Positions 7,389-64,000 of a DNA stretch of 64,000 nucleotides are shown piece by piece. Location: NCBI RefSeq assembly GCF_036321535.1, contig NC_087436.1, forward strand, positions 78,556,001 through 78,620,000, read 5' to 3'. The notes beneath the pieces were generated by a model. The model was not told the DNA's origin. It ran no database searches and worked only from the letters and a program-made list of their open reading frames with translations. Each line of letters opens with the position of its first letter. Position 1 is the first letter of the stretch. The DNA comes from Camelus dromedarius. Lineage: Eukaryota. The position numbers were made by a program, and so were the translations under genes.

Positions 7389-9539
7389 CTGAGACAGCCT
7401 CCTGAGCCTCCCAAAGCCTCAGAATGGCACTGGGGGCAGCAGAAAGTTTCCCTCGCCCCTAAGAAAGCCACAAAAGTGGCTGAGAGAAGCGTGAAACTGC
7501 CTTATACTGAATCGCAACACGTCTCCCACAAGTCACACACGCACCGTATGTCTGACTAGAGCTGAGGAGCCGTTGGAGGTGACAGTGGCCTTAGAGAACA
7601 TCTAATACAAATGATACTTACCGGGCTGTGGACCAGGCCATTGAGCCCCACACTTGAGTGAACATAGACCCATTTGAAATGTTTGTAAAAAATGCAGATG
7701 ATCAGGCCACACCCCCAAGGGGGAAAAAAAAGTGGCTGAGAGAGAATCAGAGTGCCTGAAGGGGCCTTGAGGTTCCAAGGGGAGTATGTGAACTGATACC
7801 AGAGACAGACAGAAAACAAACATTAGCAGCAATGCCACCTTAGAGAGATGGTCATGAACCAGACGACCTCACATCCACCAAGTTCCTCACACACACAGAT
7901 GGCACCCTATGTAGAAAGAAGGGAAAGGGGAAATTCTGAGTTCATTGAGGAAACCTGGTATTGACTAGATAAAGCTCAGATATCAGTAAAATGAGGCTCA
8001 CAAGAAAGTTAGAGTTGTGTTATAAATTACGTTTTTCGTTGCTGTAGGCCAGAATCTGTGGTTTGTGCAAAGCTAACCCACCACACCTGCTTCACAGGAT
8101 TGTTTTAATATGACAAGGTGAGACCAAGATGGGGAAGGTCCTAAATACACCGCTCCAATTACCAGATGCTTGTTGTTGTTACTACAGTTCACGATTTCAT
8201 TGTCCAGTCGCAAGGAGCAAAGCAACGTGGCCAAGTTTATTGTGCTTATTTTTACTATAACCAAGAATATATAAATGCATTACCTCAGAATTAACATGTC
8301 ATTTTCCCACATATAAGTAATGTGACCAGTGCTTGTAATTCAGTCATCCCACGAGTAACACAAGACATTTTCTCTAAGATGATAAGATACATTGATTTAA
8401 GACTTCCATCATACAAAAGGATAAATGATTCAACAAGGCATTCTCACGACTACAATCCAGATCTGTTTTGCTCCTTGCTTGTCAAACCCAATTTAACTGC
8501 ACTGGGTTAAAATAAACTCAATCGACTACCTGTCTTCACCTCCTGCCAGGGACCCCAGGAGGACATCAATTGTTTTTCCTTCAAAGTTATACCATTGGGA
8601 GCAAGAAACTAATTCTCATTAATGTATTTATCATAATAAAGATTGCATATCTACAATATTTTGCATAATTACTTAATTTAAACTTGACAACTATCCCCAT
8701 TTTATAGATTAGCAAACAGAGTCTCAGAAACGTTAAGTTACGGTAAAGCCACAGAGTAAATGGCAATGCCTGTATTTTGAATCAAGTGTGTCTCGTTTCT
8801 TTCCACTGTACCACATCGCCTTGCTAATGAAAACATATAAGCTTATCTGAAGCTTATACTTTAAAAAATTCTTGCCAAGAAACTCAAGGTCTAAGATAAG
8901 AAGTCGTCTACCACTCCCATCACCCACCCACTCTACCACACACCCACTCTGCCACACTCCGTCCCCTAAACCCACTGGCCTTCTTTCAAGCCTTTACAGA
9001 GCTGTTCCCTCTGCTTAGACCGTCCTATCTTTCCTCCCCACTTAAGAGAGTTCAACCCATCCTCTATAACGGACAGTGACTTTGAAAGTTTTGCTCCCTC
9101 TCCTAAGGAGAATTAGCGGCGTACACTCGGATTTGTACGGTTAGTTCAGCTTTCCATCACAGCGCACACTTATCACTTGAGAGTGGCGTTTGTCTGCATG
9201 TGCCTCGGTGACCACTACTAGAATATGACCCCCTCAAGTCAAGGTCCGGGGCCCGCCTACCTCCTGGCTTACCTGTTGGTCTAAGCACTCAGCGCATAGT
9301 CGGAGTTCAACTGATACTCGTGGTGTTAACAAATGAATTTTATTTTAAATCAAGGTCTATATTTTACACGACCTACACTGTGAACGAATTATATGTAGGT
9401 AAGCACTGTGGAGTAAACTGCTCTTAAATGATTTTAACGATGACCACGTAGAAAGGCTTCACTCACCTAAACCCAGTTTTTCCAGAAACCTCGCTCAGAG
9501 TTCAGCATAGGTTCGGTACAGACTCAGCCCAGACCAGAG

Positions 9540-10080
9540 ATGGCCCCACCTCCCTGACTGCCAATCAATCGCCCCTCACGCCTGCGCAGACACCGTCCTC
9601 TCCCGGAGCCCCGCCCCAGTCACCCGCCCCGAGGCTGCCGCGGGCGGTTAGGTCTGGCGGGAGCCTTTCCTTCACTGGCCCGCCCACTATGACGATCACC
9701 TACAGCTGCGTTGCAAATGGCCGAGCGGTCCTAGCCGAGCTGGCCCTAACCGGCGGCTCTTATCAGGTACCCCTGGGTCGCCACCTCGGCCATCACGGGT
9801 TCCACTTTTCGAGGGTGGTACCCACCGGACCTGCCCCTCGGGACGCGGCGCTAAGGAGCTGCCGGGAATCGGCTGTTGAGGCGTGAGGCCCCGCCTCCGC
9901 GAACGGCCTCTCCCTCGAGAGGCCACGCCGCCGCGCGGCCTAGCCTGCGAGATGGTGAATCCCTGGCGGGAGCCGCTCGCGCTCCCAGACGGCAGAGCCG
10001 CAAGTGCGCCGCCCAGGGGCTACGGTTGGTGTTGCACGCGACCTACTTGGCCGTGATTAGCAGTCACGTTTAATTCCGGA
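9540..10080 (+). promoter_or_regulatory. Small CpG-island promoter of the VAMP-like gene
   Basis: Local CpG enrichment around exon 1. CCAAT 9561-9565, NRF1-like CACGCCTGCGCA 9577-9588, GC boxes ~9609-9630, MYB-type CGGTTA 9645-9650, and CTGGCGGGAGCC (E2F-type core) at 9654-9665 and 9963-9974. Confidence 0.75.
9689..9766 (+). CDS. VAMP9: VAMP-like exon 1 (longin N-terminus)
   Basis: cccactATG start with A at -3. [26 protein letters not shown] aligns with VAMP7 MAILFAVVARGTTILAKHAWCGGNFL. Donor CAG|gtaccc, phase 0. Confidence 0.85.
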
Positions 10081-13000
10081 GACCCTTAAAAATATTCTCT
10101 CCCCTGAGAGAAAATGAGAAACTGAAGAATGGTCAGCAGTTCAACCCACATTTATTGAGCATGTGTTAGTCGCAAAATCCCAGGGTAAAGGTGTGGGGGA
10201 TGAAACGATGAAGAGAAAACGGTGCCTGGAGTTGTCCTTTGATGAGCACGTTGTCCCTTTATACTCAGGGGCTACGTTCAGTCGTCCTACAGTGTGAAAG
10301 TATTTCAGTGGAGGTAGATCGAGATTACTCCCGTAGCACTCGGGATGGGTGACTGCTTGCCAGCCACAGAGGAGGTGATGCTCCTGTGCAAAAGCATTGC
10401 AAGCATTAGCCCTAGCCTGGCACAGGAAAGGGGGGTGGAGACCCCATGCGGAGGGATCAGTGTGGTGTGTTTGCGGAACCTCAAGAACCTCAAGAACCTC
10501 AGTGGGGCTAGATAGAGCACAGGTTCCCAGTATACAGGGGCTAAAGATGAGGTCAGAAAAGTGGACAAAGAATAGTTAATAAAAAGTCCTATATTCAGTT
10601 TGGTTTTTTATCCTAAAGATTTATAAATAGAAGAATAGCAAGATCTGATTCATCTCCTGGAAAATTTGATCTGGTTACAATGTACAAGGTGGATTGGAGG
10701 GAAGAGAAACAGGATGGTATTCTTACTGGTTACCCAGAAGATCTAAGGGCCTGAGCTAGGGCAATAACCTGCAGAAGAAAAGAAGGGGACAGATCCTAAA
10801 CTTACTTTGTAAAACTAATCCTCATAGAGTTAATGACTGGCTGAATATGCGGGAGAAGGGTCAGGGCCATGACTAGGATGATTCTCAATTTTTAAAATCT
10901 TTTTCCCCAGCTTTATTGAGATAAAATTGGCAGAACATTGTGTAAGTTTAAGGTGTTTAATGTGAAGATTTGTCAATTTTTTTTCTTAGGTGGCATCAAA
11001 CGATAGAAACGACAGATGGAGGGGCAGAATTGTGGGGAAAGGAGTCAGAGGGAATGCAGGGGAGGAGAGTACAGCCTGGGACAGGTTGAATTGTGTTGCG
11101 GGTTGGAAATAGCCAATCTATTTGTGTATTTATTCCTCCATCTTATTCCCAAAATATTTAAGTCATAAAAATATCCAATAGGTCGCACTCAGAGGGTCAG
11201 GGTGAACAGTTAAAGATAGTTGAAGTAGATAAGATTGCCCAAGAAGGACTGTGAGTTCAATGAACACCTTGTAGATCTTGTTCAGCTTCTCTGGAGCATA
11301 AGACATTGTTTTAATTTTCTTCTCTTGGTTTTCAGAATACCATTCCTCTCATTCGGTGGCCCACCTCTCTATTCTGTTCTAAAACAGCGTTCTGCTTTTT
11401 GGCGCTCTGCTATTCTGACTGTATACTTTTCTTGGGCAATCTTATCCTTCAACTTTCTGTCTCCCTTCATAATTATGAAATGTTTATTAAGAACCTACTA
11501 CGGCATCGTCCACTGTACAAAGATTAAAACAGTCCCTGTCTTAAAGGAGTTCATAAGCCCAGTGGCCTCTCTTTATGAAGCATGCAGGGAGGTAAGAAAG
11601 TGGAAGGCGATGGAGCAGTATGCAGTCGGAGGAAAGGATTAAAGATGTGGGATGACTGCTCTGTGGAAGGCTGACCAGAGAGGAGAAAAAGGATGACAAA
11701 GAGCTTCAAGGGACATACCTTTCCTTGGTGCTAAATATTAATATGACAAATATTTTATACTTACTAGACAATATTAGTACCTACCAAAGCATAATCATGA
11801 AATCAAATCATGATGGAGCTGGACAGGATCCTAGAGATCATCTTGCCCAGTCCCTTCATTTTTCACACAAGGAAACAGACCCAGATAAGTCACCTTCTCA
11901 AGCTGTGCAGCACATCAATTCTAGAAACAGTACTGCAGCCCAGGCTGTCACTCATTTTACTGCCTCACGTTGCCATTTGCTTCGTTTGTCATTTTTCTAT
12001 GATTCCATTGTTTATATACTCTAACAGAGACACCTGGAGAAAGGTAGGGGAATATGATCCAATGAAGAGAATAGACTAATTGAAAGATTATAGATTCCCT
12101 TAATGTTTCTTAGGAAATCCTTTTCTAGAAAATACTGCCTGGATTTTTCAGGCAATACCAATAATTTCAAGTTTTACTCTTTACCATTAGTAATAAGCCT
12201 TACTCTCCCCAAAAGTTTTTATTTCCAGTGTCATTTTGTAAAAATGGAAAAGTTAATCAGGAGTGCGGCTACTCAAGTCTTCTTAGGTTACTTTCACGTC
12301 CCTTTCACATGTGTAAAGTCAATTTATGGGATTCCATACAATCAACTGTATTTAAGGTATCTGGATAATCGCAGTACCTTACAAAATTTCCCCCAAAGAA
12401 TAAGCCTTATAAGAAACAGGCATGAGAGATCTTAGTAATTATTTGTCTTTTAGAAAAAAATCAGTGAATAATAATGAATAAAATTTTTTATCTTAATCAA
12501 AAAAAAAAGAAGACTGCTTAAGTTATTCTGAGACTAAAAGCAGAATACTTTTAATCCATTAATATTTTATATGTAGCTTCATAGAGGTCACTGAAAAGAT
12601 ACTTGATTAGATAGTACTTCCCAGCCTTGAAACCATATATGATAATGTGCTGTAAAAATAAGACTAATTAGTGCAACTTATATTTGCATACTTATGTGTA
12701 TGCACAAAGTATATGTGTATTTATGTAATTTTATTATTTTCCTTCAGATTCATATGAATATTTCATGATAACTTGCCTCTTACCATGCATTACGAATAAC
12801 CACCTATTTGTCCTCCTAGTAAACAGTTGTTCCTTAATAAACTAAACAGAACATTGGTAAATTAAGGAGATGTATAATGAAAGACACTACAGTCTTCTGC
12901 AAAGTAAATGCTGACAATTTATTTTTAGGAAGCAGCTGCAACAGTGCTTAAACTAGTGCTTCTTAGAGCTGAACCAAAGACCATAATTCATATGGGAAGG

Positions 13001-16000
13001 TATGGTATACTCTAATAAAAGCCTACTTTTCAATAATTACTAGCTAATAATTCCAATGATAATGATATAGGGAAAAAATATTTGTTGCACAGACTCTTGA
13101 TTGAACCCTCAGAAAGGAGAACTTTTATATGTAAAAGTATAAAATGATGAATGGGAATGATGAACACTAAATTCGAAATAGTGGTTCCCTCTGCAAAGAG
13201 AAGGGAGAAGAAGTTGTGGGGACATTGTCTCTGTAACATTTTGACTGGATGGTAGGTCTACAACTGTTCTTGTTATCTTATTCTCCATACTTTGTTGGCA
13301 TACCCAAAATATTTCATTAATAAAAAAGGAGACTTCCACTTGAAAATATCTGTAATAAGATCATTAAGATTTACTTGGGACATTGCATGGTTTGGCCTAA
13401 ACCAGTCTTAAAAACCTTTTGCTAGTAAAAGAACAGGTGAGGAATAAGAAAGCTTCTATAATTTTTAGACTCATCATTTTTTTTAAGAGGAGGTTTGTTT
13501 TAACCTTTATATTGTAAAATAAAACAAAACAGAAAAACCTCATCAAGCAAATGTATAGTTTCATGAAGTTTTTCGAAGAACCCCACTACCAACCAACTGC
13601 AACTGTCACCTAAGTCAGAAAATGGAGTACTGCCAGCTCCCCCCAAAACTCCCCACCATGTAGCCTGGCCTGCTCACAGTTTCCTCCCTCCCCCTCAAAT
13701 CAACCATCATTCCAACTTCTGTTGCAGTCATTTATCCTGTTTATTGCCTCAGTACCTAAATATGCATCCTCAGACACAAGAGCCCAATCCTGCCCATTTT
13801 TAAAATTGATGTTTTCCAAGTCTCTTTAACCCACATATTTCCCCTCCTTCCCTTTCTTTTCCTTACAATTTATTGTTGAAGAACCTGTAGAGCTTCCCAT
13901 ATTCTGGTTTTGCTGATTGCATATTCAAAATACAATTCACCATGTTCCAAGCAGCCGGATCCGGCGGCATGATCCCTTTGGCAAGACTACAGGTGTTTTT
14001 TCATCAGATGGTACATAACATCTGCGTATGTCTCCTTTCGGCATGCTAGCAGCCATTGACTTTCACTGCCTACATCCTAGAGCCATTAATTTATTGGGGG
14101 GTTGCAAAATGGTGACATCTAGTTTTGTTTTCACTTATTAGCTGAAGTGATTTTTTTTGAAAAAAGATACTATCCTCCTCTACTATTTGCTTAACCTACA
14201 GTGGACATTCTAATTTGAGTCTTTTGAGGATCTCTTCCCTGAACTCCAGACTTGTATATCCAACTGCTTCTTCTACGTCTCTGTTGGATATCTAATGGGC
14301 ATCTCAAACTTAGTTCCAAAACCAAACCTCCCCCTACAGCCTTCCACATGTTACCTTTCCAGTGCCTCAGGCCAAAAGGCCTTCATATTTTAGAGAGTTT
14401 TTATTTAACGTAATTTACTTTGATTTTTCAAGTGTATGATAGATTCTCTAATTATTCTGATTATAAAAAGTTATCTACATAGTTTTTACACTGTTAGTGA
14501 GAGCTTGAAAATGAAATTTAAATTCTCTGTGTCATTGCTTAATTTCTTTAATGTGATGTAAATGAATGTACTCTTTTCAAAGCTTTGTCTACCATACTCT
14601 GTTTATTGATGGAATCACTTACCTATGTGCTTCAGACAATACCTTGGATACCATAACACCATCTGCATTTCTTAAAAATGTAAGTAATTTCTTGTACTAC
14701 TTTAAGGACTTCTTCAGTTACTGAAATTATTAGGTGTCTATTCTATAGTTTATTAGTAATAATGTCACTGACCAAAAGCAGATCATACATGTCTGCGAGA
14801 TTAACATCTACATGTCTGTATAGTAGAGCCATTAATGACCTTCAGAGATTTCTTGCCCTTATCCCTCATCTGTCTCCTGCTTTCATACCTCCCCTGACTC
14901 GAAAGCAAGATCTGCAAAGACAATCCACCCAGATCTACTAGAATCTCTCTGTGTATTTATTTTGTTCTTTAAAAATAAGAAAAATTATCTTTACTAATAT
15001 TTAATATACCTTTTCAATAGCATATGTATTTAATTTTCAAATAATTATTGTAAGACATTTCTGGTAGAAAATATGAATCAATTGTATGAGTTAAATGAAA
15101 AAAATTTTTTACTCAAGACATACTATCTTTAGGAAACATCTTACCTGAAAACTCCTGGCAAATATAAAATATGCTAAATGGAATACTTATATGTATGTAC
15201 TTATGTGGATAAATGAGATTTTATAAGTTTCTCAAAGGGTAATTAACCTTCTCAATAGATATCATCAGTTGCTATCACCCAGCATTTAATCTCCGACTAG
15301 AATAAGACTGTGAAAGGCAGTCTCAGAGGCAGACCACGGCTAAACCATTATTCTGATAACTTTATGGTCCAGATAGTATGTTTGTATCTTATTTTAAAAA
15401 GTAAAAAATACTAATCTTCAATTTTATTCACAAATATATAATTTAGGATAAATATTTTAACAAAAAATATTCATGGAAAAATCAGTCAGCTATACTATAG
15501 TTACTAATAGTTATTCTCCAGTCACAGTCATAAATAATGCATACATTTTATTTGTTTAGCATAACAACTTGTTTTAACACAACTCAAACTGTAACCATAT
15601 ATAGAATCAAAGATTACAAGACCTAATACTGTAGTTCACTCTACAGTTATGCCGAGACAGTCATTAGCATCTACCTGCTAAACGTTGTTAGCCATTTAAC
15701 TGACTCCACTCTAATTTTTTTTCCTTCTCTGCCATTATGGAAGAACATCTCAACTTTACCAACTTTTCAAAACTATATGACACAAAACTTCTAACCACAT
15801 GATGGTTACTACTACTTCTGAATTGTCAGAATTGTCAAAATTCCTTCTTGAAGTTTTGAAATGTCATATAACAACCCTATAGGTTTTGAAAAATAGTATC
15901 ATGATATTTAGTTGGGATTGTTTTGTTATTGTTGAATGGATTTTGAGGGTAGGGGCAGGAGGGGAAAATGGAAAGCATTTATTTAGAAGATATCATGGAA

Positions 16001-17625
16001 TCCCATCTTTCCTTCTCTGCCAAAAGGAAACATCTGCAAGTCCCCTCACTTCCCCAGAAATGCCAATACCAAAGAGTCAAGGCAGCACCTGCAGTCTCAC
16101 GATACGAGGCTGTGGTCTGTACTTCTGTGGTGGAGAAGACTGGGAAAGCACAGTTTTCATTAATACTGTATCTTTAAATGGAAAGGACACCCAGACACCA
16201 AAAATCCAGAAATGTTCTGGTTTCTTTTCTTGCCAGTTTCTGCCAGACTTTGCTTCAAATAATGCTTGCTCTGTAGTTCTCCAGTTGAAATTATCTATAT
16301 AGTTTAAATATTTCCATTAATTTTCCCAGGTTAGTGAGACTTTTCTGAGAAATCCTTTGATGTCACAAGAACATTTTTCTCCTTCAAATGCAGTCGCTGC
16401 AGATTTTCAACAAGTATTAGGAAAGTATATGGTATGTAACCTCCAATTGTATTCCTAAACATTGTTAGTGTTACATCTAACTAATCAGGAATTATGAGTT
16501 AAGAGCTGTTAAGGTGAATGAGAAGTAAGAACTTCTATCTCTATATAATGATAAGGAATGGTATCCAAGATACATTGATAAGTGAGTAAAGCAAGATAGA
16601 GAAAATATGTATAGTATTCTGTTATTTACTTATCATCCTGTATGCATCCATTTAAGAAAGAGGGAATAAACACAAATATATTTTTGCTTATAGTGAAAAA
16701 GGGTGGGACAGAAGGACATGGGAAGGATAAACCAAAAGCATTTCAATGGTTGCCTGTGTAGAAATGGGGACAGGAATAGAAACTAGAGCTCTCTGAATGA
16801 AAGTTGACTTGGAACTGTTGTAAATATTTTACACAATTATAAAATCCTATTAAAGTAAATATTTTAAGTAGTCCCTAATAAGTGAAATAAGACAGTCCGA
16901 GAGGACAAATACTGTGTGATGCCACTTATTTGAGGTACATAGAGTAATCAGATTAATAGAGACAAAGTAGAATGGCGGTTGCCAGAGACTGAGTGGAAGG
17001 GAGGAGGAGTTCTTGTTTAATGGGTACAGAGTTTCAGTTTGGGAAAATAAAAAAGTTCTGGAGATGGATGGTAGTGATAGCTGCACAGCAAGGTGAATAT
17101 CCTTAATGCCACTGAACTAAGCAGTTGAAAATAGTTAAAATTACACATTTTATGATATGTATGTTTTAACATAATAAAGTTTTTAAATTTTTTTCTTTTA
17201 TTGAGACATAGTTACTGTATAATATTATTTAAGTTATAGGTATATAATATGATTCACAATTTTTAAAGATTATACTCCATTTATAGTTACTATGAAGTAT
17301 TGGCGTATTCCCTATGTGGTACAGTATATCCTTGTAGCTTATTTTATACCTAATAGTGTCTACCTCTTACTACCCTACCCCTGTCTTACCCCTCCCCCAT
17401 TTCATCTCCCCATTGGTAACCACTAGTTTGTTCTCCATATCTGTGAGTCTGCTTCTTTTTTGTTATATTCACTAGCTTGTTGTATTTTTTAGATTCTACA
17501 TATAAGTGATGTACAGGATTTGTCTTCTCTGTCTGACTTATTTCAGTTAGCATAATGCCCTCCAAGTCCATCCATTGTTGCTGCAAATGGCAATATTTCA
17601 TTCTTTTTTATGGCTGAGTGGTATT

Positions 17626-17660
<35 letters not shown>

Positions 17661-20600
17661 CTCACATCTTCTTAATCTATTGGCCTGTTGATGGACACTT
17701 TGGGTGCTTCTGTATCTGGGCTATTGTAAATAATGCTGCTATGAACATCGGGATGCATGTATCTTTTCAAATTAGTACTTTTATTTTTTTTCAAATATAT
17801 ACCCAGGAATGGAATTGCTGGGTCTTATGGTAGTTCTATTTTTAGTTTGTTGAGAAACCTCCACACTGTTTTCCACAGTAGTTGCACCAGTTTATATTCC
17901 CACCAACAGTGTACAAGGGACAAACCAAATATTTGATGATACTAAGGAATATTTTTAGATGTCATGATTTTGTTTTTAAGAAAAATAAGGCTGTATCTTC
18001 TAGAGATACAAAATGAAGCATTTACAGATTAAAATAATAGACTGTCTGGGATTTGCTTTAAAATAATACATTTGGGGAAGGGGTAATCGATAGTTGTATA
18101 GGTGAAATAAGATTGGCGATGCTGAAACTAGGTGATGGGCACACTGAATAATTCACTCTGTTTCTGTATATATTTGAACTTTTCCATAATAAAATATTTT
18201 AAGTATACCTGCATCAGTTTTCAATGTATGTGTAACAAATTTACCGCAAATCAGCAGCCAGAAACACGACACATTTACTATCTCACACAGTTAGTATAGG
18301 TCAGAAATCGAGGCTCAGTTTAACTGGGTTCTCTGCTCAGGGCCTCTCAGGGTTGCAGTCCGTGTGTCAGCCCGGCTGTGTTCTCTTCTGGAAGCTCTGG
18401 GGAAGAATCTGCTTCTGGCCTCATTCGGGTTGTTACAGAGTTCATTTCCTCAGAGCTGTGCAAGGGATGCCACTTTTTGCTGGCTGTCAGCTGGAGGACA
18501 CCCCTGGTCCTAAAGACTGATGGCAGCTCCTTGCCATGTGAGCATCCTCAGCACAGGGCTTGCTTCTTCAGGGCCAGCAGAGGAACCTCTCACTCCAGTC
18601 TGCTAACTGTTATATAATATGACATAATCATAGGAGTGACATTGCATCACCTTTGCTTCCATTCATTAGGAGAAAATCACACTTAAGTGGGGGAAATCTT
18701 ACTAAGATATGACTCAGTGGGGGTCACCATACGGTGTGCCCACCACAATGCCTGAAAAAGTAACTCAGGATAGATATATTAAATATTTCTTATGAAGAAT
18801 TCTGTAATATTCAATGCAGCCAAAATATATTATTATCATAACTCCGTGAAAACTAGTTACCATGCAAAAATATGCACATTTTAAGCAGTTAACACATCTG
18901 ACATCAAAAAGATTCCTGTTTAACATTTATAAACTAACCTGGTGGGCTTTAAATCTGCAGAAAATTTTGTAAAACTTGTTGAATTTTTTATACTATAATT
19001 AACAAAATGCACACAGCAGAAAAAAAAGTAGTTTTGAGAGAGTTTTAATTATATATTACATATTTTAATTATATATATGTATATATATAAATGTACCAAA
19101 TACCATTGAACGGACTATGAATACATTATCTTAACAAAACTTAGATGCATCTCTTAGATTAAAAAAGATTAAGCACTTTTTAAAAGGAGAGGAAAAGAGA
19201 AGAGAAACAAAAAGAAAAATCAAAGATTCACTATTTATCTTAACTTGATTATATCTGCAAAAACCTTATTTCCAAATAAGGTCACATTCACAGGTATCCA
19301 GAATTAGGATTTGAAGGTATCTTTTTGGAGGGATACAGTTCCCTCTCTTCTACATCCAACTAGTAAGCTCCTGACAGAACGTCAACTATGAGTTGTATGG
19401 TCCAGGAACCAAGATCAGAGTTCTGTTTAAGGTGGATTTGATCACTTGCCAAAGATCAAGAGGTTTTCATATCATTTTTATTCAAAAAGTAATAGTCATT
19501 AATAAAGTGAGATAAAGCAAAAGTATTTAAAGTGAAATATGAGTATTTCCTAAGGTCTCAATCAAACTCCCTTGAGGTGAGCACTGTTAACAGTTTGGTG
19601 TGTAACCTTCCAGAATTATACAATGAGTAAAGGCTTAATCTCTGGAGCTTCTTGCTTAGCCTCTAGCTGTGTAAAATCAGGCAATATATTAACTTCTCTC
19701 AGTCTGAATTTTCTTATTTAGAAAATAAGAGACAGTAGGAGTACTACTTTATATAGTGGTTTGGGAATTAAATGAACTAGCATGTGTGAAGTGCTTAAAA
19801 CAGTGCCTGGAACATACTAAGTGCTTAATGAGTTATTATTTAATACTGTTCTGCAGCTGCAGCTTACCTCTTTAATATAGCACTATATCTTAGAGATCAT
19901 TTTTCATATAGATTGAGTGGAAGACAAAAATAGGAACAAAGAACAAGAGCAATGAATAGAAAACAGTAACAAATATGGAAGATATTAATCCAACCATATC
20001 AATAATCACTTTAAAAGTTAGCAGTCTTAATACACCAATTAAAAGACAGAAATTGTCAAATTGGATCAAAAAACTGTCACAAGAATGAGAAGACAAGCCA
20101 CAGACTGGGAGAAAATGTTTGCAAAAGAGAAATGTGATAAAGAACTATAATCCAGAATATACAAAGACCACTGAAAACTCAACAATAAGAAAATAAACAA
20201 CCTGATTGAAACATAGGTCAAAGATATGAATAGATACCTCACCAAAGAAGATATACAGATGGCAAATAAGCATATGAAAAGATGCTCAACATCATATGTC
20301 ATTAGGGAATTGCAAATTAAAGTAACAATGAGATACCCCTCACACACCTATTAGAATGGCCAAAATTCAAAACACAACACCAAATGCTGGCAAGGATGTG
20401 GAGCAGTAGAAACTCTTATTCACTGCAGGTGGGAATGCAAAATGGTACAGTCACATTGGAAGGCAATTTGGCAGTTTCTTACAAAACTAACATACTCTTA
20501 CCATATGATCCAGCAATTATGCTTCTTGGTATTTACATAGAGGAATTGAAACTTACATCCACACAGAAACCTGTATATGGATGTTAGAGCAGATTTATTC

Positions 20601-23600
20601 ATAATTGCCAAAACATGGAAGCAACCAAGATGTCTTTCCATAGGATAAATAAACTGCAGTACATCCAAACCATGGACTATTATTCAGCCCTAAAAAAAAA
20701 TGAGCTATTAAGCCATGAAAAGACATGAATCTTAAGTTCATATTACTAAGTGAGAGAAGCCAATATGAAAAGGCTACACATTGTATGATTCTAACTATGT
20801 GGTATTCTGGAAAAGGCAACACTATGGAGACAGTAAAAAGACCAGTTGTCTCCAGGGCTTAGGGAAAAAGGAAGCATGATTAGGTGGAGCACAAAGGATT
20901 TTAAGGGCAGTGAAGCTGTTCTGTATGATGCTGTAAAAACGAATACATGTCATTATGTCATTATACATTTGTCCAAATCCGTTGAATTTACAGTATTAAC
21001 AGTGAACACTAATGTAAACTATGGGCTTTGTATGATAACGATGCATCAATGTGGGGTCACCCATTGTGACAAATGTACCAGTCAAGTGCAGGATGTTGAT
21101 GGTGAGGAAGGCTGTGCATGTGTCAGGGATAAGGAGTATCTGTACTTTTCACTCAATTTTACTGTAAACCTAAAACTGCTCTTTTTTAAAAGTCTCTACT
21201 AATAAATAAACAAAAAATTTAAACTTAAAAAGAAACTTCCACTGCTGATTATACAGTCCTGCTCCCGCCACCCTCCATTTTTCCTGCAAGATTAAGGTGA
21301 GACAATTTGAGGCTTAGTTGATTCCTTATGCTGAAATGCAAGTGAGATGTGCCTTTGACACCTTTGTTCTAATTTATACAGTGTATCATAATAGATTTCA
21401 CTTATAGAAAATAAAATTTATATTATATTTCACTTCTATATAGATGAAATACAATAAAAATCAAGATGACAGCTCGATGTCCACACTGAGGAGTCAAGTG
21501 ACTGATGTAAAAAATGTTCTGACCCAAAATATTGATAAAATTTTGGAAAACGAGGGAAGATTGAATATCTTCTCTGATAAGACAGCTAATCTGCAAACAA
21601 CTGTGAGTGTTACAGAGCTCTCTTGATACCTAAATACTGCTCTAAAGCACAGGCTCACTACCCTTGAGACAAACTGCCCAAAGCAAAAATACACCTGGGA
21701 CACTAAGTGAGAGAATCGTATGTCACCAAGCTATGGCTTCATGAAAAAAATTATTGAAATGCAACTAAAGTATTAAAAGAATAATTATAAAACAATCCAA
21801 ATTTTAAAACCCATTAAAGTAACAGATGGTTATTTGTGTGAAAGGAGGATTTCTTACATTAAGAAACACAGAGGTTAGTCAACAAATAAATTGCAAGGGA
21901 AAAAAGGAGAAGGAAACTTACCCAAAAAAAGACTTAGAAGGTATTATCAATTGCAGTGTGTGGTCCTTACTTGGATTTTGATTCTAACAAACTATAAAAG
22001 TGAAATTTCACAGCTTCATGAGACAACTAGATATTTGAACTCTGGCTGGATGCTAGATGATATTAAGGAATATTACTAATTTTTAGGTGTGATAATGGCA
22101 TTGTGGTTATGTTTTTTTTAAAACACCTTCATTGTGGTATGTTTCCTGTACAGCAAACTAAACATATTTCAAACGTACAATTTGATTAATTTTGATAGCT
22201 GCATACACCAGTGAAATCACTATGGCATTGTGGTTATGTTTTGAAAAGAGTCATTACTTATTAGAGATATACAGTAAAATACTTACGAATGAAATTATGT
22301 AACATCTGAATTTTGCTTCAGAATAGTTCAGGAGTTGGGGAGTAGAATGGGGTATAAATGAAATAAAATTGGCCATAAAATAACAATGGTTAAAACTGGA
22401 TGTTGAGAATATAGGGGCTCATTATGCCACCTGTTAACTTTTGTATGTGTTTGAAATTCTGTATTAAAAAATAGTTTTAAAACAATCACTAAAAGTTGAA
22501 AGCTTCCTCTGAGCATTTAAAATTTTATTTTTACAGATAGTTTCTAGAAACACAGCCACCAGGTAAAGCAAAGTCTACACATACTTTTTACTCACCAAGT
22601 TCTATTAATTCACCTTCCTAAATCTTTTTTGTTCTTAGGCTCATTTTTACTTCTTTAAAAACAACTTACCAAAGCATTATTTACATATAATATTCACCCA
22701 CCTTAAGTGGAGTTTAATGGCTTGTGGTAATTGTGTACAATTGTGTGACCACAATCAAGTTGTAGACCAGCTCTTCCATCCTAAAATCTTCCTCATCCCT
22801 CCTTTATAGTTGACTTAACCCTACCTCTGACCCCAACCAACCACTGATCTGCTTTCAGTTACTATAGTCTTGCCTCTTCTGGAGCGTCGTATAAATAGAA
22901 TCATAAAATACATAGTCTTTTGTGTTTGACTTCTTTTACTTAACATAATGTTTCTAATATCCATGTTGTTGTGTGTTAATATTTTATTCCTTTTCATTGC
23001 TAAATAGTATTCCACAGAATGGCTAAATCTCTTAAACCCACCTTCTGCTCATCCATTGCCACTCACTGTCTCACTCCAAGATCAGTTCTCTCTTGCCTGA
23101 TTCTGGTAATTCCCAGATTTAATTGTTCTCCCACCTTTTAGTTTTATTCTACTCCAGTCATCCTCCACACTGACACTATAAATATTCTTTTAAAATGAAA
23201 GTATGGATATTATCTATAGCCTTTTTAAAACCCTCCAGTGGTGCACCTTTGTTAGACACCAGGGTACTGTTCAACATCTCTAACTTAGTGAGCTTTCTTC
23301 TGACTATATTGTCATCCAGAGGTCATGGTCCTGTAGTTTATAAGTCTCAAAAAATACCAGACTATTTGTAATTCTCCAAAGTACACATTGAATGATTTCA
23401 CACCTTTAAATATACTGTTCCCTCTTTTTCCTTGCCTTGGAAAACTTCTATTCATCCATCAAAACCCAGCTCAAGAGTCATCTCCTCATTCATTACACAG
23501 GCTGAGTTTTTCCCTCTTATCTTTGCTATCCTTGCACCTTTTACTCATTGGTTAATTCAACAAAATCTCTTGAAGATCTACTGTCTATGTATGTGTCTAT

Positions 23601-26600: not shown

Positions 26601-29600
26601 ATTTATTTATTTAGGCTTGTCTTACTACATTAGCTAGGAACTCCAGAAAAATGTTGAAGAGAAATGTTGATGTCTGAAATACTTGTTTTGTTTCTGATGG
26701 AAAAATGAATAATTTCTAATGCTTCAGTTAAGTATTAAATTTACATTCAAATTTTGATAGGTATCTTTTAACAAGCTATGAACATTTCTTCCTATTCCTC
26801 ATTTGCTAAGAAATTTTATCATGAAAGGAGGTTGCATTTTATCAAATGCCTTTTTCACATTGAGTTAATAATTTTTCTTCTTTACCCTGTAAATATGATG
26901 AATTGCACATTACATATTTGTATGTGTTGTTGAATTCAATATGTTATAGTTTATCATTGTTGCCTCAAAAGACTCAGTCCACAAATGTATAAAAACTATA
27001 TGTGATACGCCATGTGCAGTTGTATTCTCCTGTAATTTTTCAGTCTGTCCTGTGCCTGTGGTTAGTTTTATTTTTTCATTCCTAACCTCTCTTTATTTTT
27101 TATGGGAGTTATAATTAACATATAATATTATATTAGTTTCAAGTGTACAACACAGTGATTCAATATTATTTTATATTATTAAATGCTCACCACAATAAGA
27201 CCACTTACCATCCTGTCACCATACAAAATTGTTACAGTATTATTGACTATGTTCCCTATATGTACATTACACCTCTGTGACTTACTTTATAGCTGGAAAT
27301 TTGTACCTCTTAATCCCCTTCACCTATTTTGTCTGTCCCCCTACCCCTCTCCCCTCTGGCAACCACCTCCAAGCTTTTTTTTTTTTTTTTTTTGGAGGGG
27401 GATGTCTTTTGAAAAGATCAGTTTTTGATTTATTTATAATTCCATTCAAAACTTAGTTGATTCTAATCTCATTGCTTCTAATCATTTCCAAGTGATTGTG
27501 GATACATGTGAAGTTCTTTTCCAGACGTATTTCTGAAGCCTGGTTATTTCTTTGCTTCCTTGCTCATGCCTTCCTCTCATGTTAAAGGCAACTACTTTGA
27601 GACCATTAGGCTTGGTTGGATAGGAAGTTTATACCCCTAATCTGATCTCTAATGCAGGGCAGAATCTTTTTTTTTTTTCAATTGAGGTAAAATCCACATA
27701 ACATAAACTTAACATTTTAAAGTATACATTTTAGTGGCATTTAGTACATTCACAATATTGTACACTCATCACCTCTATCTAGTTCCAAAACCTTTTCATC
27801 ACCCCAAAAAGAAACTTCATACCCATTAAGCAATTACTCCCCAGCCCCTGGCAACCAATAACTTACTTTCTGTCTCTATGGCTTTATCAGTTCTGAATAT
27901 TTCATATAAATAGAATAACATAATCTGTGATCTTTTGTGTCTGGCTTCTTTCACTTAGCATGATGTTTTTGAGGGTGATCCATGTTGTAAGCATGAGTCA
28001 GTACTTCATTCCTTTTTGGCTGAATAATATTCTATTGTATATATGTACCACAACTTGTTTATCCATTCATCAGCTGATGGATATTTGGGTTGTTTCTGCC
28101 TTTTGGCTACTGTGAATAATGCTGCTATGAACATTCATTTACAAGTTTTTGTTTGAATACTTGTTTTCAATTCTTTTTATGTATGTACATAAATGGAAAT
28201 GCTGGATCATATGGTAATTTTATTTTAACTTTTTGATAGTTTTAAGGAACTTCCCAACTATTTTCCACAGTAGTTGAACCATTTTACATTCCCATCAGTG
28301 ATATGAGGGTTCCAATTTCTCCACATCTTCTTCAACACTTGTAATTTTTCATTTTTTTTAAATTACAGCCATGCTACCAGGTATGAAGTGGTATCCTTAT
28401 TTTGATTTGCATTTCCTTGATTACTAATGATGTTGAGCATCTTTTCATGTGCTTGTTGGCCATTTGTGTATCTTCTTTGGAGAAAATCTATTCATGTCCT
28501 TTGCCCATTTTTAATAGGTTCAGGGGGGTTTTGTTTTTGAGGAAGGGTAGAATCTTAATGGGCTTTTGTCATTAAAAAGCCTTTTCAATCTTACGTCTTA
28601 TTATTTGGGCCCAAATCCATCAGCTTATCCAATCTTTCAGTGTTCCACATTTCTGCAGTCTCTCTATTCCTTTTCATGTCTTCTTGCAAACCAGCCAATT
28701 GTTACCTTGCTAAAATGTAGCTAGTAACAAGAACTCACACTACTACCATTCTATTTTCCAAACTTCTTCTAAAATGACAGATTTAATGATACTTTGTCTG
28801 CCTTTCAGATTGTCACATATGATAGTTTTAGCAAATATTTTACCGTGCATAGCATTGGTCTTTATGTTTCCAATCTCTAATATTAGTTTGTTCTCTGCTT
28901 ACCACCTGGTGGTTAAGCCACTGCTATGTTTTAGGGTTTTGTCATAACAATATCTCATCCAACTACCAATTTCAATATTAGAAAAACACTAGCTGTACCA
29001 GCATACCTCAAGTTTTCAGTGTTTTAACTCAATAGAGGTTTGTTTCTTGGTTGTATAATGGTCTAAAGCAGGTTTTCAGTGAGCAGATTTCCACATGGTA
29101 ATCCAGAAACCCAGGCTTTTTCCATTTTGTGACTTTGTCATTGCCTTGGCCCCTTAGAGTCTCAACTTCAGGTGGCAGCTGGTTAAACATGGCGTGGAAG
29201 AAGCACATTTGCTTATAGCCACGTTAGCCCAAAAGTGACACTCATCACTTCTACTCACAATCTATTGGTAAGAATTAGTCTTATAGCTTTGCATAGGTGC
29301 AAGGGGTAGGAGAGAAACATGGTCTGTGATTGGAGAGTCTCTTGCCAGCAACAACTCTACACTACGGAAGGGGAACTTAAAGTCTTCAGTGGATAGCTGG
29401 CTGTCTTTACCACATCTGGAAGTTTATCACTAAAGGAGATTCTAAAGGAAGTATAGAAAGTGGTAAAGGTGTGGGTAACACTAAATGAATCTTGACTGCA
29501 ATATAGGTTCCTCTCCTTATCCCTGACAAAGGATAATAAATTGTATTATCTAAAGACAACAGACCTAAGAGATTCTAAACTCAGACACCGGGTGCAGTTG

Positions 29601-32600: not shown

Positions 32601-33886
32601 AGAGTCATGAGGCCATCAAGCAGCATACCAGGATCATGCCATTAATAGCATGCATCGTAATCATGAGCCTTGATTTTGTTCTTGAAAAATCACCATATAC
32701 ACTGAGTAAAGAAGCTGATCTGATGCATGAAGAAAGATAACTGAAATTTGTTAGAATTTTACTTCTTATCCAGGTGGCAGATAGCAGAAATCCATGTAAG
32801 CACCAAGCAATTTACCTGTATTACGGCTATATGAAAAGCAGTTACATGTATTTTAAAAACAAAAAGGAGTGGACCAAATGAAAACAATAAAGCTTTTTGC
32901 AGGGGATGAGGGAAGGATTTTACAATTCCGTGTGGCCTTGTTTCATCTCTCTCCACTGCTCCTTCAATTCTGTCAGTAATTTGAGTAAAAGTGAGCTATT
33001 TTGTTTAGGTTTAATTATGTTAATATATAAAACTTTTTCTATTGTACTTAACAAAATCCATTTTATTATTCATCAAAAATATTAACTATCACAATGGCAT
33101 AATTTATTCTTATATGGCAGTCTAGATATGCTATCCTCACTATCTCAGTTATGCCTAACAATCTGGGCGACTCCGTAGTACATGCCCTTATCCTCATTTA
33201 CTAAACAGATTTAGTCATTCATTTTTTCAACAAATACTAATTGAACACCGGCTCTATATCGTGCACTGTTGGGAATATAGCAATGAATGCAACAGACAAA
33301 AATCCCTGCATTCATAAAGTTTACATTCTCAACAAACAATAAATAAGTAAAATTTACATATTGTTAGATGAAAGATAAGTACTTTGGAGAAAAAATGTAT
33401 TGAAGGGAAATAAGGTTTCAGGGATGGAGATGGAGGTAGCAATTTTAAATAGGTTTATAAGGGATAGTGGCATTTAAGTAGAATCATGAAGTGAAGATGA
33501 GGAAGCTGAAGTTCAAAGAGTCAGTAACTTGTTCAAGGTCACGAAGTTAATAAAGCCAGTAAAAGTATAGCTGACCACAATAAGGAATCTTGGTGCATCG
33601 TTTTATAATAGCTGCTCAGACCTATTGAGACTTTTTGGGATTGGTCCCAAATTAAATCTGTTCTTTTAGATGGTGCTAAGTATTGTAGTGTGCACATTAA
33701 TCCAGAAATGGAAAGAAAAGTTTACATCTGTGTTTATTTTTATTTCAGGCCAAAGAATCCAAAAAAACAAGAAAGATTCTTAGGAGGATATGGTGGAAAC
33801 ACTTCAAAAAGATTATCATTATCACCGTGGCAGTTCTCCTTTCAGTCATCATCCTTCTTTTAAGTACAAATGTAATACCAACCTGA
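9689..33886 (+). CDS. VAMP9: Longin-domain R-SNARE (VAMP7-like / VAMP9), 6 coding exons, 214 aa: join(9689..9766,12929..12999,14583..14679,16330..16431,21444..21602,33749..33886)
   Basis: Exons of 78+71+97+102+159+138 = 645 nt, all GT-AG with compatible phases and no internal stop. Protein: [214 protein letters not shown]. It is collinear with recalled VAMP7. The symbol rests on recalled synteny of VAMP9/VAMP9P with HNRNPD and is less certain than the family call. Confidence 0.85.
10130..11100 (-). mobile_element. L2-like fragments with a short nested L1 3'-end insertion (~10890-10975)
   Basis: L2 hallmark (ttcaacccacatttattgagca) plus a T-rich L1 3' end flanked by repeated tcaattttt. Confidence 0.5.
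12929..12999 (+). CDS. VAMP9: VAMP-like exon 2 (longin)
   Basis: Acceptor atttttag|GAA; encodes [23 protein letters not shown] plus AG; donor AG|gtatgg, phase 2. Confidence 0.8.
14583..14679 (+). CDS. VAMP9: VAMP-like exon 3 (longin)
   Basis: Acceptor ctcttttcaaag|[19 protein letters not shown] aligns with VAMP7 YLFHYICQDRIVYLCITD. Donor AAT|gtaagt. Confidence 0.88.
16330..16431 (+). CDS. VAMP9: VAMP-like exon 4 (end of longin)
   Basis: Acceptor ttttcccag|[17 protein letters not shown] aligns with VAMP7 AMNSEFSSVLAAQL. Donor ATG|gtatgt, phase 0-0. Confidence 0.85.
16850..17180 (+). mobile_element. L1 3'-end fragment
   Basis: L1M-type 3'UTR text (taagtgaaataagacag...gggtacagagtttcagtttggg...aaagttctggagatggatgg). 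Confidence 0.7.
17190..17920 (-). mobile_element. L1 3' end (ORF2 C-terminus and 3'UTR)
   Basis: Minus-strand ORF 17386-17601 contains [17 protein letters not shown], an L1 ORF2 C-terminal motif; T-rich tail at the left end. Confidence 0.8.
17628..17658. repeat. (TG)15 microsatellite
   Basis: Read directly from the sequence. Confidence 0.95.
18210..18750. mobile_element. MaLR (MLT-type) LTR fragment
   Basis: MLT-like phrases (gtaacaaatttaccgcaaa, ggaagctctggggaagaatctgcttc). Confidence 0.6.
19915..21230 (+). mobile_element. L1 fragment: ORF2 start joined directly to ORF2 3' end and 3'UTR
   Basis: Endonuclease-start-like sequence ([26 protein letters not shown]) at 19995-20075, followed by C-terminal ORF2 and 3'UTR sequence ending in an A-rich tail. 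Confidence 0.8.
21444..21602 (+). CDS. VAMP9: VAMP-like exon 5 (SNARE motif)
   Basis: Acceptor cttctatatag|ATG; synaptobrevin-type heptads [39 protein letters not shown]; donor ACT|gtgagt; 159 nt, phase 0-0. Confidence 0.92.
21860..23020. mobile_element. L1 3'-end fragments in both orientations, with a nested short insertion
   Basis: L1 3'UTR motifs. Minus-strand ORF 22821-23015 ([13 protein letters not shown]...[11 protein letters not shown]) is an L1 ORF2 C-terminus. A 21-bp direct repeat lies at 22095-22115 and 22222-22242. Confidence 0.7.
24563..24657 (-). mobile_element. tRNA-derived SINE (camelid-type)
   Basis: Reverse complement reads agctca..gtggtagagtgcatgcttagcatgcacaaggtcctgggttcaatatccagtacc with A/B boxes and an A-rich tail. 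Confidence 0.8.
24790..28520 (-). mobile_element. Cluster of antisense L1 fragments in VAMP-like intron 5
   Basis: T-rich ORF2 and 3'UTR sequence. The element at ~27670-28545 is flanked by a TSD-like aggg(c/t)agaatctt. Confidence 0.75.
25857..25976 (-). mobile_element. tRNA-derived SINE (camelid-type)
   Basis: Reverse complement gggggaggatatagctcaagtggcagagtgcatgcttagtatgcatgagattcagggttcaaacccc, with repeated aacattaaaa flanks. Confidence 0.8.
28970..29410. mobile_element. MaLR (MLT1-like) LTR fragment
   Basis: MLT1-like phrase aagtgacactcatcacttctactcacaatctattgg. Confidence 0.5.
29420..31300 (+). mobile_element. Old L1 5'/ORF1 remnant
   Basis: A-rich ORF1-like text (aacaggagtttcagaaaaagaaaat, ttgaaaattctgaaggaaaattatttc). 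Confidence 0.6.
31854..32036. mobile_element. hAT DNA transposon (MER20-like)
   Basis: Terminal inverted ends cagggtttctcaacc ... agttaggaaccactg, with internal MER20-like text (gacaatcaaaactgtctc...ttgccaaatgtc). Confidence 0.7.
33749..33886 (+). CDS. VAMP9: VAMP-like exon 6 (SNARE C-terminus, WWK juxtamembrane motif, TM anchor, stop)
   Basis: Acceptor ttttatttcag|GCC; encodes [48 protein letters not shown] at 33884-33886. Confidence 0.9.
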   Translation, partial: AKESKKTRKILRRIWWKHFKKIIIITVAVLLSVIILLLSTNVIPT

Positions 33887-63739: not shown

Positions 63740-64000
63740 TCCCATATTATGGTCCAAATCTCTGCACCCTGTGCTCCTGCACCTCCTATCCACCCAGCAT
63801 TCCTCTTAGAAGTCACTTCAACCCTAGTTCTTTCATTCCTCATCAGCCTGGTAAACTATTCCTTCAAAACCCCAGTTAGATGTTACTACTTTGGGACTTC
63901 TCAGGCTCCCTGAGGCAGAATTAATCATCCATTCTCACAGCCTTTATCCTTGCTTCTGCTCTTCTAAATATGCAATTGTACTAGACCATGAGTTCCTGAA
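63740..64000 (+). mobile_element. L2 fragment
   Basis: L2 3'-like text (cctggtaaactattccttcaaaacccc, ctagaccatgagttcctga). Confidence 0.5.

What the first reader, a model, noticed from the sequence alone, without database searches (positions are those of the whole stretch)
21549..21551. Zero-layer arginine of the R-SNARE motif replaced by asparagine
Seen: [12 protein letters not shown], codon AAC, residue 152. Established: the gap-free equivalent position in VAMP7 (NIDLVAQ-R-GERL), VAMP2 (NVDKVLE-R-DQKL) and VAMP8 (NVERILA-R-GENL) is the Arg of the 3Q:1R ionic layer. AAC is at least two substitutions from any Arg codon, so a single base error is unlikely. Inference: this is either a non-canonical SNARE with altered partner choice or disassembly, an inhibitory/decoy SNARE, or a gene under relaxed selection.
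Basis: partly seen in the sequence, partly recalled or inferred. Interest (0 to 1): 0.75.

Follow-up and report, generated by a model that had tools for sequence, protein, structure and literature searches.

The report
Camel VAMP9 lacks zero-layer arginine
The asparagine really does sit where a membrane-fusion (SNARE) protein normally has its key arginine, but the gene is the camel copy of the little-studied VAMP9, in which this position has changed repeatedly across placental mammals.

Summary
Observation confirmed. Codon AAC at 21549-21551 is residue 152 of an intact six-exon, 214-aa gene on the + strand. Its spliced translation equals a dromedary RefSeq protein letter for letter. Ungapped alignments to VAMP7 and VAMP8 put N152 opposite their zero-layer Arg (R150, R37).

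The gene is the ortholog of VAMP9. This is a longin SNARE first reported from rat male germ cells and a pseudogene (VAMP9P) in human. N152 is shared by Camelus ferus/bactrianus and Vicugna, so it is neither an error nor dromedary-specific.

Across 60 placental VAMP9 sequences the zero-layer column reads S21, R20, K12, T3, N3, I1. It needs at least 13 changes on a species tree, while its neighbours need 0-4. Fish, turtle and most marsupials keep Arg. Of 125 other VAMP7-like cluster representatives, 124 have Arg.

[quoted passage not shown] The longin domain is the best conserved part.

Best reading: site-level relaxed constraint in a SNARE that probably no longer depends on full zippering.

The parts
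9689..9766 (+). VAMP9 coding exon 1 (ATG, residues 1-26), inside a CpG-rich promoter region
   Evidence: tblastn of orthologs; GT donor; 84 CpG in the 2-kb bin 8001-10000
12929..12999 (+). exon 2 (residues 27-49 plus two bases of codon 50), longin domain
14583..14679 (+). exon 3 (residues 50-82), longin domain
   Evidence: weak Longin PF13774 hit on this exon in the genome scan (E=2.26, below cut-off)
16330..16431 (+). exon 4 (residues 83-116), end of the longin domain
21444..21602 (+). exon 5 (residues 117-169): linker plus SNARE-motif layers -7 to +4; 159 nt, phase 0 at both ends, so skipping it keeps the frame
   Evidence: the exon-5-skipped product equals stored protein P0083
21549..21551 (+). 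codon AAC = Asn152 at the zero-layer position
29158..29238 (+). alternative terminal exon (with stop) that replaces layers +5 to +8 and the membrane anchor; gives the 195-aa isoform P0002
   Evidence: AG acceptor; translation matches P0002 except V8/I8
33749..33886 (+). exon 6 (residues 170-214 plus TGA): layers +5 to +8, the basic [10 protein letters not shown] stretch, the transmembrane segment and the ..TNVIPT tail; AATAAA shortly downstream

Best explanation
The codon is the true zero-layer position of the camelid ortholog of VAMP9. This is an intact gene for a tail-anchored longin SNARE of the VAMP7-like group. Arg was the ancestral state: fish, turtle, most marsupials, xenarthran and afrotherians have it. 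In placental VAMP9 the site has lost its constraint. It most likely went Arg to Ser early in Laurasiatheria and Ser to Asn in the camelid stem; felids reached Asn independently. The same relaxation affects the membrane-proximal half of the SNARE motif, whereas the longin domain and layers -5 to -1 stay conserved. Inference: the conserved job of placental VAMP9 rests on the longin domain, the N-terminal half of the motif and the membrane anchor. That could mean intramolecular closed-state binding, targeting, or partial non-fusogenic pairing in male germ cells, rather than full zippering. On this view N152 is a tolerated, near-neutral state and not a camel-specific innovation. Shown: position, gene structure, orthology, distribution of residues, relative conservation. 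Inferred: the order of codon changes, the relaxed constraint, and the functional reading.
For: Gene structure and identity: six exons with GT-AG introns, identical to a 214-aa dromedary RefSeq protein. Orthologs are named VAMP9 in horse and cattle records. An HNRNPD-type CBFNT exon lies about 27 kb downstream, matching cattle, where VAMP9 is listed near HNRNPD and HNRNPDL. Zero layer: ungapped alignment to VAMP7 R150 and VAMP8 R37. N152 is shared by three Camelus species and Vicugna, with at most 5 differences in 214 aa. In 60 placentals the column reads S21 R20 K12 T3 N3 I1 and needs at least 13 parsimony steps, against 0, 4 and 1 for L150, E151 and E153. In 40 full-length placentals the steps per site are: longin 2.41, N-half 4.88, zero layer 9 (rank 17 of 214, tied with 8 other columns), C-half 6.64. 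Pro is at +4 in 13 of 40 and at +8 in 21 of 40; +6 is F in 21 and S in 16. Fish and turtle have a canonical motif with Arg. In 131 VAMP7-like cluster representatives Arg holds the column in 124; 4 of the 5 non-Arg rows are VAMP9 fragments. VAMP7 in the same genome has ..AQRGERL... [quoted passage not shown]
Against: No nucleotide sequences of orthologs were available. dN/dS was therefore not computed, and relaxed constraint cannot be told apart from diversifying selection at codon 152. The camelid motif itself keeps hydrophobic residues at -7 to -1, +1, +2, +4 and +8, so it could still form a full bundle. The Pro-containing layers occur in other lineages, not in camel. The species tree used for parsimony was written from my recall of accepted mammal phylogeny, with polytomies. 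The layer spacing -7 to +8 is also recalled. AlphaFold2 gave only pLDDT 51-65 for the motif helix, so it shows no closed state. The primary Vamp9 paper (Chocu et al. 2014) could not be read and may already discuss the motif.
Confidence: 0.7

Rival explanations
1. Functional non-canonical fusogenic SNARE. Camelid VAMP9 still zippers fully with three Q-SNAREs, and Asn (an amide like Gln) forms a polar 3Q:1N layer. That layer would change partner choice, register fidelity or NSF/alpha-SNAP recycling. On this view the repeated changes are adaptive tuning in a fast-evolving male germ-cell gene.
For: The camel keeps hydrophobic layers at -7 to -1, +1, +2, +4 and +8 and its membrane anchor. The replacements seen are mostly polar or small (S, K, T, N), with one Ile. 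N has persisted since before the Camelus/Vicugna split. Passages in PMC5937789 list cases where zero-layer mutants still work, and PMC4970327 shows that the 3Q:1R ratio affects Stx17-VAMP7 binding.
Against: Apart from Asn, every residue seen can be reached by one base change from AGA or AGG, and Asn by one more step from Ser or Lys. That is what unconstrained sampling would give. The neighbouring C-terminal core layers carry Pro, Ser or Arg in many orthologs, which argues against strict full zippering in the family. No partner is known.
Confidence: 0.2
2. The gene is decaying in camelids, as an early pseudogene like human VAMP9P, and N152 is one of its lesions.
For: VAMP9 is a pseudogene in human (PMC6324057). 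Annotated isoforms drop the SNARE exon or the anchor (P0083, P0002). The dromedary also has E154G next to the site.
Against: The 214-codon ORF, the start, the stop and all ten splice dinucleotides are intact. There are only 5 differences in 214 aa between dromedary and vicuna. The longin domain is predicted with pLDDT above 90 and matches VAMP7 longin structures.
Confidence: 0.05
3. Assembly or sequencing error at the codon.
For: Raw reads were not inspected (one search gave no result).
Against: The same residue appears in records of three other camelid taxa. Fourteen DNA runs of seven samples in four studies hold all 11 sampled words of the exon, though some may be the source of the assembly.
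Confidence: 0.01

Closest known systems
VAMP9 (rodent Vamp9; human pseudogene VAMP9P; horse and cattle 'VAMP9' records)
   Same: Ortholog. It is 76-86% identical to placental VAMP9 proteins over the full length. It has the same longin + SNARE motif + anchor + ..NVIPT tail architecture and the same neighbourhood as cattle VAMP9.
   Different: Zero layer is Asn rather than the Arg of mouse, whales, squirrels, turtle and fish. Among the taxa examined, Asn is otherwise found only in felids.
VAMP7 / TI-VAMP (longin R-SNARE; PDB 4b93, 2dmw)
   Same: Best solved relative (E=1.2e-17, residues 1-174). Longin fold, Foldseek TM 0.67 normalised to target, rmsd 2.3 over 121 columns. Ungapped SNARE motif. 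Both genes have annotated isoforms that lose the SNARE motif but keep longin domain and anchor (VAMP7j, PMC3123573; P0083).
   Different: About 25% identity in the Foldseek alignment. In the tree VAMP9 sits in a separate ancient clade with invertebrate VAMP7-like proteins (support 100/99 for the split, midpoint root only). VAMP7 of the same genome keeps Arg.
Drosophila Ykt6 as a 'non-conventional, regulatory' longin SNARE
   Same: A longin R-SNARE whose zero-layer Arg is dispensable. The authors propose that it forms only a partly zippered complex (PMC5937789, passages). This is the mechanism favoured here for placental VAMP9.
   Different: Ykt6 keeps Arg in nature and is lipid-anchored. VAMP9 has lost Arg naturally and has a transmembrane anchor. 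Nothing was tested for VAMP9.
Non-SNARE longins (plant phytolongins; exon-skipped VAMP7 isoforms)
   Same: Longin domain plus C-terminal membrane anchor, with a central region that is no longer a SNARE motif (PMC2779197 abstract). Placental VAMP9 looks like a partial step in that direction, and its exon-5-skipped isoform has exactly that architecture.
   Different: The canonical camel isoform still has a recognisable Synaptobrevin motif above the Pfam cut-off.

Membership tests
Synaptobrevin family (Pfam PF00957) | Match to the family profile above the curated cut-off | tested here: met
   Exon 5 alone scores 37.5 bits against a cut-off of 26.4, E=2.2e-9; it also scores above the cut-off in the whole-genome scan.
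Longin SNAREs | N-terminal longin domain | tested here: met
   phmmer to VAMP7 longin structures: 2dmw_A E=2.6e-8 and 4b93_A E=1.2e-17. PF13774 is precomputed for P0002. The AF2 model has pLDDT above 90 over residues 1-90 and 88-95 in 101-120 (67 in the 91-100 block), and its top Foldseek hits are VAMP7 longin structures. The exon-wise genome scan alone was below cut-off.
Longin SNAREs | C-terminal membrane anchor after the motif | tested here: met
   Exon 6 encodes [26 protein letters not shown], aligned with the same segment of orthologs. This was judged by inspection; no transmembrane predictor was run.
R-SNARE (Q/R classification) | Arginine at the zero layer | tested here: not met
   Asn152 lies opposite VAMP7 R150 and VAMP8 R37. 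By sequence family it belongs with the R-SNAREs, but by the defining residue it is not one.
R-SNARE (Q/R classification) | Heptad pattern of hydrophobic core layers -7 to +8 | tested here: inconclusive
   Camel layers are M L V V L N I [N] L F T L A S R L. Layers -7 to -1, +1, +2, +4 and +8 fit; +6 is Ser and +7 is Arg. The layer spacing is recalled, not taken from a structure of this protein.
VAMP9 orthogroup | Closest relatives are VAMP9 proteins, and the gene sits in the same neighbourhood | tested here: met
   Best hits are horse and cattle 'VAMP9' and their orthologs. The mammal+turtle+fish clade has support 99/94; the camel sequence itself was not in that tree. The HNRNPD-type neighbour matches cattle.
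Inhibitory (i-)SNARE / non-fusogenic SNARE | Binds cognate SNAREs but blocks or fails to drive fusion | not testable with these tools
   This needs binding and fusion assays.

The most novel reading that the evidence does not exclude
Placental VAMP9 is an R-SNARE caught in transition to a non-fusogenic, membrane-anchored longin regulator. After a one-residue deletion and the arrival of Arg at +7 and Pro at +8 in stem placentals, the zero layer and the membrane-proximal layers became free to vary. Only the longin domain and the N-terminal half of the motif, which would serve closed-state binding or half-zippering, are kept. The repeated replacements (Ser, Lys, Thr, Asn, Ile; Asn twice) might alternatively be adaptive tuning in male germ cells.
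Probability: 0.3. Interest if true: 0.6.

Novelty: new variant of a known kind. Interest (0 to 1): 0.4.

Why it matters
The 3Q:1R zero layer is the feature by which SNAREs are classified, and natural exceptions among VAMP-type proteins are rare. Here 124 of 125 other VAMP7-like representatives keep Arg. VAMP9 offers a natural series across mammals (R, K, S, T, N, I at the zero layer; Pro at +4 and +8). That series could be used to ask what the ionic layer and C-terminal zippering are needed for in vivo, and whether a longin SNARE can drift into a non-fusogenic role. For genome annotation the message is plainer. This is an ordinary, already annotated ortholog, and the odd residue is a family trait of placental VAMP9, not a camel curiosity. 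I found no printed account of the zero-layer variation. The term 'VAMP9' occurs in 8 papers of the library: passages read in 5, listing only for 2, 1 not listed. The primary paper, Chocu et al. 2014, could not be read.

Tried and rejected
Raw-read support and camel expression therefore remain open.

2. RNA runs X15-X20 (organism B and runs labelled 'reproductive system metagenome') hold 7 of 11 sampled words.

3. Longin Pfam scan of the genome: the window exon scored only E=2.26. The domain was established by other means.

4. AlphaFold2 on the camel isoform P0002 with 59 aligned sequences: the longin domain is confident, but the SNARE helix has pLDDT 51-65. It says nothing about a closed conformation.

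5. A four-helix-bundle prediction with Q-SNAREs was not attempted, because no usable partner sequences were in hand.

6. The primary Vamp9 paper (PubMed 25210130) is not held. A search for 'VAMP-9' with 'germ cells' found nothing. What I say about testis expression beyond its title is recall.

7. Earlier notes of this scan: two look-ups, nothing found.

8. Pfam scan of the 47 longest of 92 ORFs of at least 75 aa in the window: only one hit, CBFNT.

9. A regex census counted isoforms redundantly and missed 33 proteins. It was replaced by the one-protein-per-genus alignment.

Full report
**What is at the coordinates.** Window 21549-21551 reads AAC. It lies in a 159-nt exon, 21444-21602 on the + strand, bounded by ..tatag| and |gtgagt. 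The exon's translation matches Pfam Synaptobrevin above the curated cut-off: E=2.2e-9, 37.5 against 26.4 bits, profile positions 3-45 of 89. The window comes from a 2.3-Gb mammalian assembly, on contig C1.

**Gene model.** tblastn with database orthologs found six coding exons on the + strand. Inspection fixed their borders at 9689-9766, 12929-12999, 14583-14679, 16330-16431, 21444-21602 and 33749-33886. All five introns are GT-AG. The spliced product is 214 aa with a single terminal stop. It is identical to stored protein P0304, a dromedary RefSeq record named 'uncharacterized protein LOC116147180 isoform X1'. Residue 152 is the Asn.

Two further annotated products are reproduced from the window:
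- Skipping exon 5 gives P0083 exactly: longin domain plus anchor, with no SNARE motif.
- An alternative terminal exon at 29158-29238 gives P0002, which lacks layers +5 to +8 and the anchor.

**Is N152 the zero layer?** phmmer of the camel protein against all PDB chains gave VAMP7 as best hit (4b93_A, E=1.2e-17, residues 1-174) and endobrevin/VAMP8 (1gl2_A, E=3.2e-5). Both alignments are ungapped through the motif:
- camel [12 protein letters not shown] against VAMP7 NIDLVAQ-R-GERL;
- camel [12 protein letters not shown] against VAMP8 NVERILA-R-GENL.

Passages of PMC4970327 name VAMP7 R150 and VAMP8 R37 as the zero-layer residues. The paper's mutagenesis primers encode exactly these local sequences. 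Camel R155 aligns with the second Arg of VAMP7 (GERL), so the register shift proposed as a refutation does not apply. VAMP7 proper in the same genome, on contig C37, encodes DLVAQRGERLELLIDKTENLVDS.

**Is it an error?** The same Asn is present in Camelus ferus/bactrianus (P0299) and in two Vicugna pacos records (P0303, P0309). These differ from the window protein at 2 and 5 of 214 positions (P0299 and P0303). All 11 sampled 31-letter words of the exon are held by 14 DNA runs of 7 samples in 4 studies, although some of these may be the source of the assembly.

**What the gene is.** Database searches returned orthologs of about 214 aa in bats, carnivores, perissodactyls, cetartiodactyls, eulipotyphlans, rodents, lagomorphs, a colugo, a tree shrew, one monkey fragment, a xenarthran, afrotherians, marsupials, a turtle and fish. 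The numbers were 28 hits among 39 candidates; 165 hits at E up to 1e-5, of which 120 were listed; and 88 hits.

Source names are mostly 'VAMP 714-like', 'VAMP7-like' or 'uncharacterized', but the horse and cattle records are named VAMP9. [quoted passage not shown] It cites Chocu et al. [quoted passage not shown] That paper is not held, so I know it only by its title.

Synteny agrees. A cattle GWAS table lists VAMP9 next to HNRNPD, HNRNPDL, ENOPH1, RASGEF1B and TMEM150C (PMC13491712). The window has an ORF with the CBFNT domain of hnRNP D-type proteins at 61310-61603 on the - strand (E=8.6e-11), in a CpG-rich stretch.

In a maximum-likelihood tree of 46 proteins, mammalian, turtle and fish VAMP9 form one clade (support 99/94). 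That clade sits among invertebrate 'VAMP7-like' proteins and is separated from the clade holding vertebrate VAMP7 by branches with 100/99 support. The root is midpoint only, many rows are unnamed representatives, and the camel sequence itself was not included.

**The zero layer across VAMP9.** I took one protein per genus (75 genera, chosen by me). Isoforms and duplicates were dropped, as were the exon-5-less cattle and buffalo models. I aligned them and counted changes by Fitch parsimony. The species tree was written from my recall of accepted phylogeny, with polytomies.

In the 60 placentals the zero-layer column reads S21, R20, K12, T3, N3, I1 and needs at least 13 steps. The flanking columns L150, E151 and E153 need 0, 4 and 1. 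By lineage:

| Lineage | Zero-layer residue |
|---|---|
| Fish, turtle | Arg |
| Australidelphian marsupials | Arg |
| Didelphid marsupials | Lys |
| Tamandua, dugong, elephant shrew | Arg |
| Tree shrew, colugo, squirrels, beaver | Arg |
| Most muroid rodents | Arg |
| Voles, Rattus rattus | Lys |
| Lagomorphs, hystricognaths, Rhinopithecus | Lys |
| Shrew, mole, most bats | Ser |
| Horse, rhinoceros, caniforms | Ser |
| Pig, hippopotamus, sheep | Ser |
| Hipposideros, hyaenids | Thr |
| Glossophaga | Ile |
| Felids (three genera), camelids | Asn |
| Whales, deer | Arg |

Every residue seen except Asn is one base change from AGA or AGG. Asn is one further change from Ser (AGY) or Lys (AAR). 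This is codon logic; the relatives' codons were not seen.

For comparison, I aligned 131 cluster representatives (P0167-P0297) from an exhaustive profile search of VAMP7-like proteins to the same profile. That search gave 3137 hits at E up to 0.001, of which the best 150 were listed. Of the 131 rows, 124 have Arg in this column and 2 have a gap. Four are short VAMP9 fragments with Ser or Lys, and one has His.

**The rest of the motif.** In 40 full-length placentals (211-216 aa; this set excludes the camel, whose stored row was the 195-aa isoform) parsimony steps per site were as follows:

| Region | Steps per site |
|---|---|
| Longin domain | 2.41 |
| Linker | 6.45 |
| Layers -7 to -1 region | 4.88 |
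| Zero layer | 9 (rank 17 of 214, tied with 8 other columns) |
| C-terminal half of the motif | 6.64 |
| Juxtamembrane | 4.4 |
| Anchor | 4.96 |

Layers -5 to -1 change conservatively (V/I, M/L, N). In contrast, +4 is Pro in 13 of 40, +8 is Pro in 21 of 40, +6 is Phe in 21 and Ser in 16, and +7 is Arg in 32. Placentals also have one residue fewer between +6 and the WW motif than fish, turtle and marsupials. Layer numbers rest on the recalled a/d spacing around the documented zero layer.

The camel itself reads M L V V L N I [N] L F T L A S R L from -7 to +8. It has no Pro, but it has Ser at +6 and Arg at +7, like other Laurasiatheria.

**Structure.** AlphaFold2 on P0002 with 59 aligned sequences gave a confident longin domain: pLDDT 91-97 for residues 1-90 and 88-95 for 101-120, with 67 for the 91-100 block. 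The motif helix 127-159 has low confidence, 51-65. The best Foldseek matches in PDB are VAMP7 longin structures: 4b93_A at E=3.2e-7, TM 0.67 normalised to target, rmsd 2.3 over 121 columns. Sec22b and Ykt6 follow.

**Interpretation.** The following points are shown:
- The position is the zero layer.
- The gene is an intact VAMP9 ortholog.
- Asn is fixed in camelids.
- In placental VAMP9 this site and the membrane-proximal core layers are among the least conserved parts, while the longin domain and the N-terminal layers are kept.

The rest is inferred. The requirement for Arg was lost, most simply because placental VAMP9 no longer depends on a fully zippered 3Q:1R bundle. Two published precedents make this plausible. 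In Drosophila, Ykt6 R164Q rescues fully, and the authors propose a partly zippered, regulatory SNARE (PMC5937789, passages). [quoted passage not shown] Membrane-anchored longins without a SNARE motif exist as VAMP7 splice forms and as plant phytolongins. The exon-5-skipped VAMP9 isoform has that same architecture.

I put about 0.7 on this reading, 0.2 on a still-fusogenic SNARE with a functional 3Q:1N layer, 0.05 on gene decay in camelids and 0.01 on error. Codon-level selection tests, expression data and assembly or fusion assays would decide between them; none could be run here.

**Novelty and score.** The gene is annotated and named. The camel residue is one instance of a family-wide pattern. 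I did not find that pattern in print. Of the 8 papers containing 'VAMP9', I read passages in 5 and none concerns the motif; 2 I saw as listings only and 1 was not listed. The primary paper was not readable. I rate this as a new variant of a known kind, with moderate interest of 0.4.

Noticed in passing
window 16431/33749 junction (exon 4 joined to exon 6): An annotated isoform skips the 159-nt SNARE exon in frame, giving longin domain plus membrane anchor (P0083, 161 aa). It is reproduced exactly from the window. The same cluster holds such forms from whales, dogs and vicuna. It parallels the VAMP7j isoform of VAMP7.
   Followed up: partly
window 29158-29238 (+): An alternative terminal exon after exon 5 yields a 195-aa product without layers +5 to +8 and without the anchor (P0002).
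   Followed up: partly
window 61310-61603 (-), CpG-rich 60001-64000: An ORF with the CBFNT (NUC161) domain of hnRNP D / D-like proteins (E=8.6e-11). It is probably the first coding exon of the neighbouring HNRNPD-type gene, as in the cattle VAMP9 neighbourhood.
   Followed up: partly
window 21555-21557 (codon 154) and 9710-9712 (codon 8): Gly154, two residues after the zero layer, occurs only in the dromedary records; other camelids and 49 of 60 placentals have Glu. Val8 and Ile8 differ between two versions of the dromedary record.
   Followed up: no
orthologs P0095 and P0096 (Bubalus, Bos): The only buffalo and cattle VAMP9 models retrieved lack the SNARE exon, while sheep and deer models have it. 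Whether bovines have lost exon 5 was not checked.
   Followed up: no
orthologs, alignment: Placental VAMP9 has one residue fewer between layer +6 and the WW motif than fish, turtle and marsupial VAMP9. It also carries Arg at +7, and Pro at +8 in Atlantogenata and Euarchontoglires. The C-terminal layers therefore seem to have been altered already in stem placentals.
   Followed up: partly
G000 contig C33, about 15.103-15.114 Mb (-): Two tandem genes each have Synaptobrevin split over two exons (profile positions 2-45 and 45-88). From memory this looks like the VAMP8/VAMP5 pair; not checked.
   Followed up: no
window about 20000-20900: Intron 4 holds ORF fragments that look, from memory, like the end of LINE-1 ORF2. 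They were not checked with any tool. The ORF at 20321-20584 (+) gave no Pfam hit.
   Followed up: no
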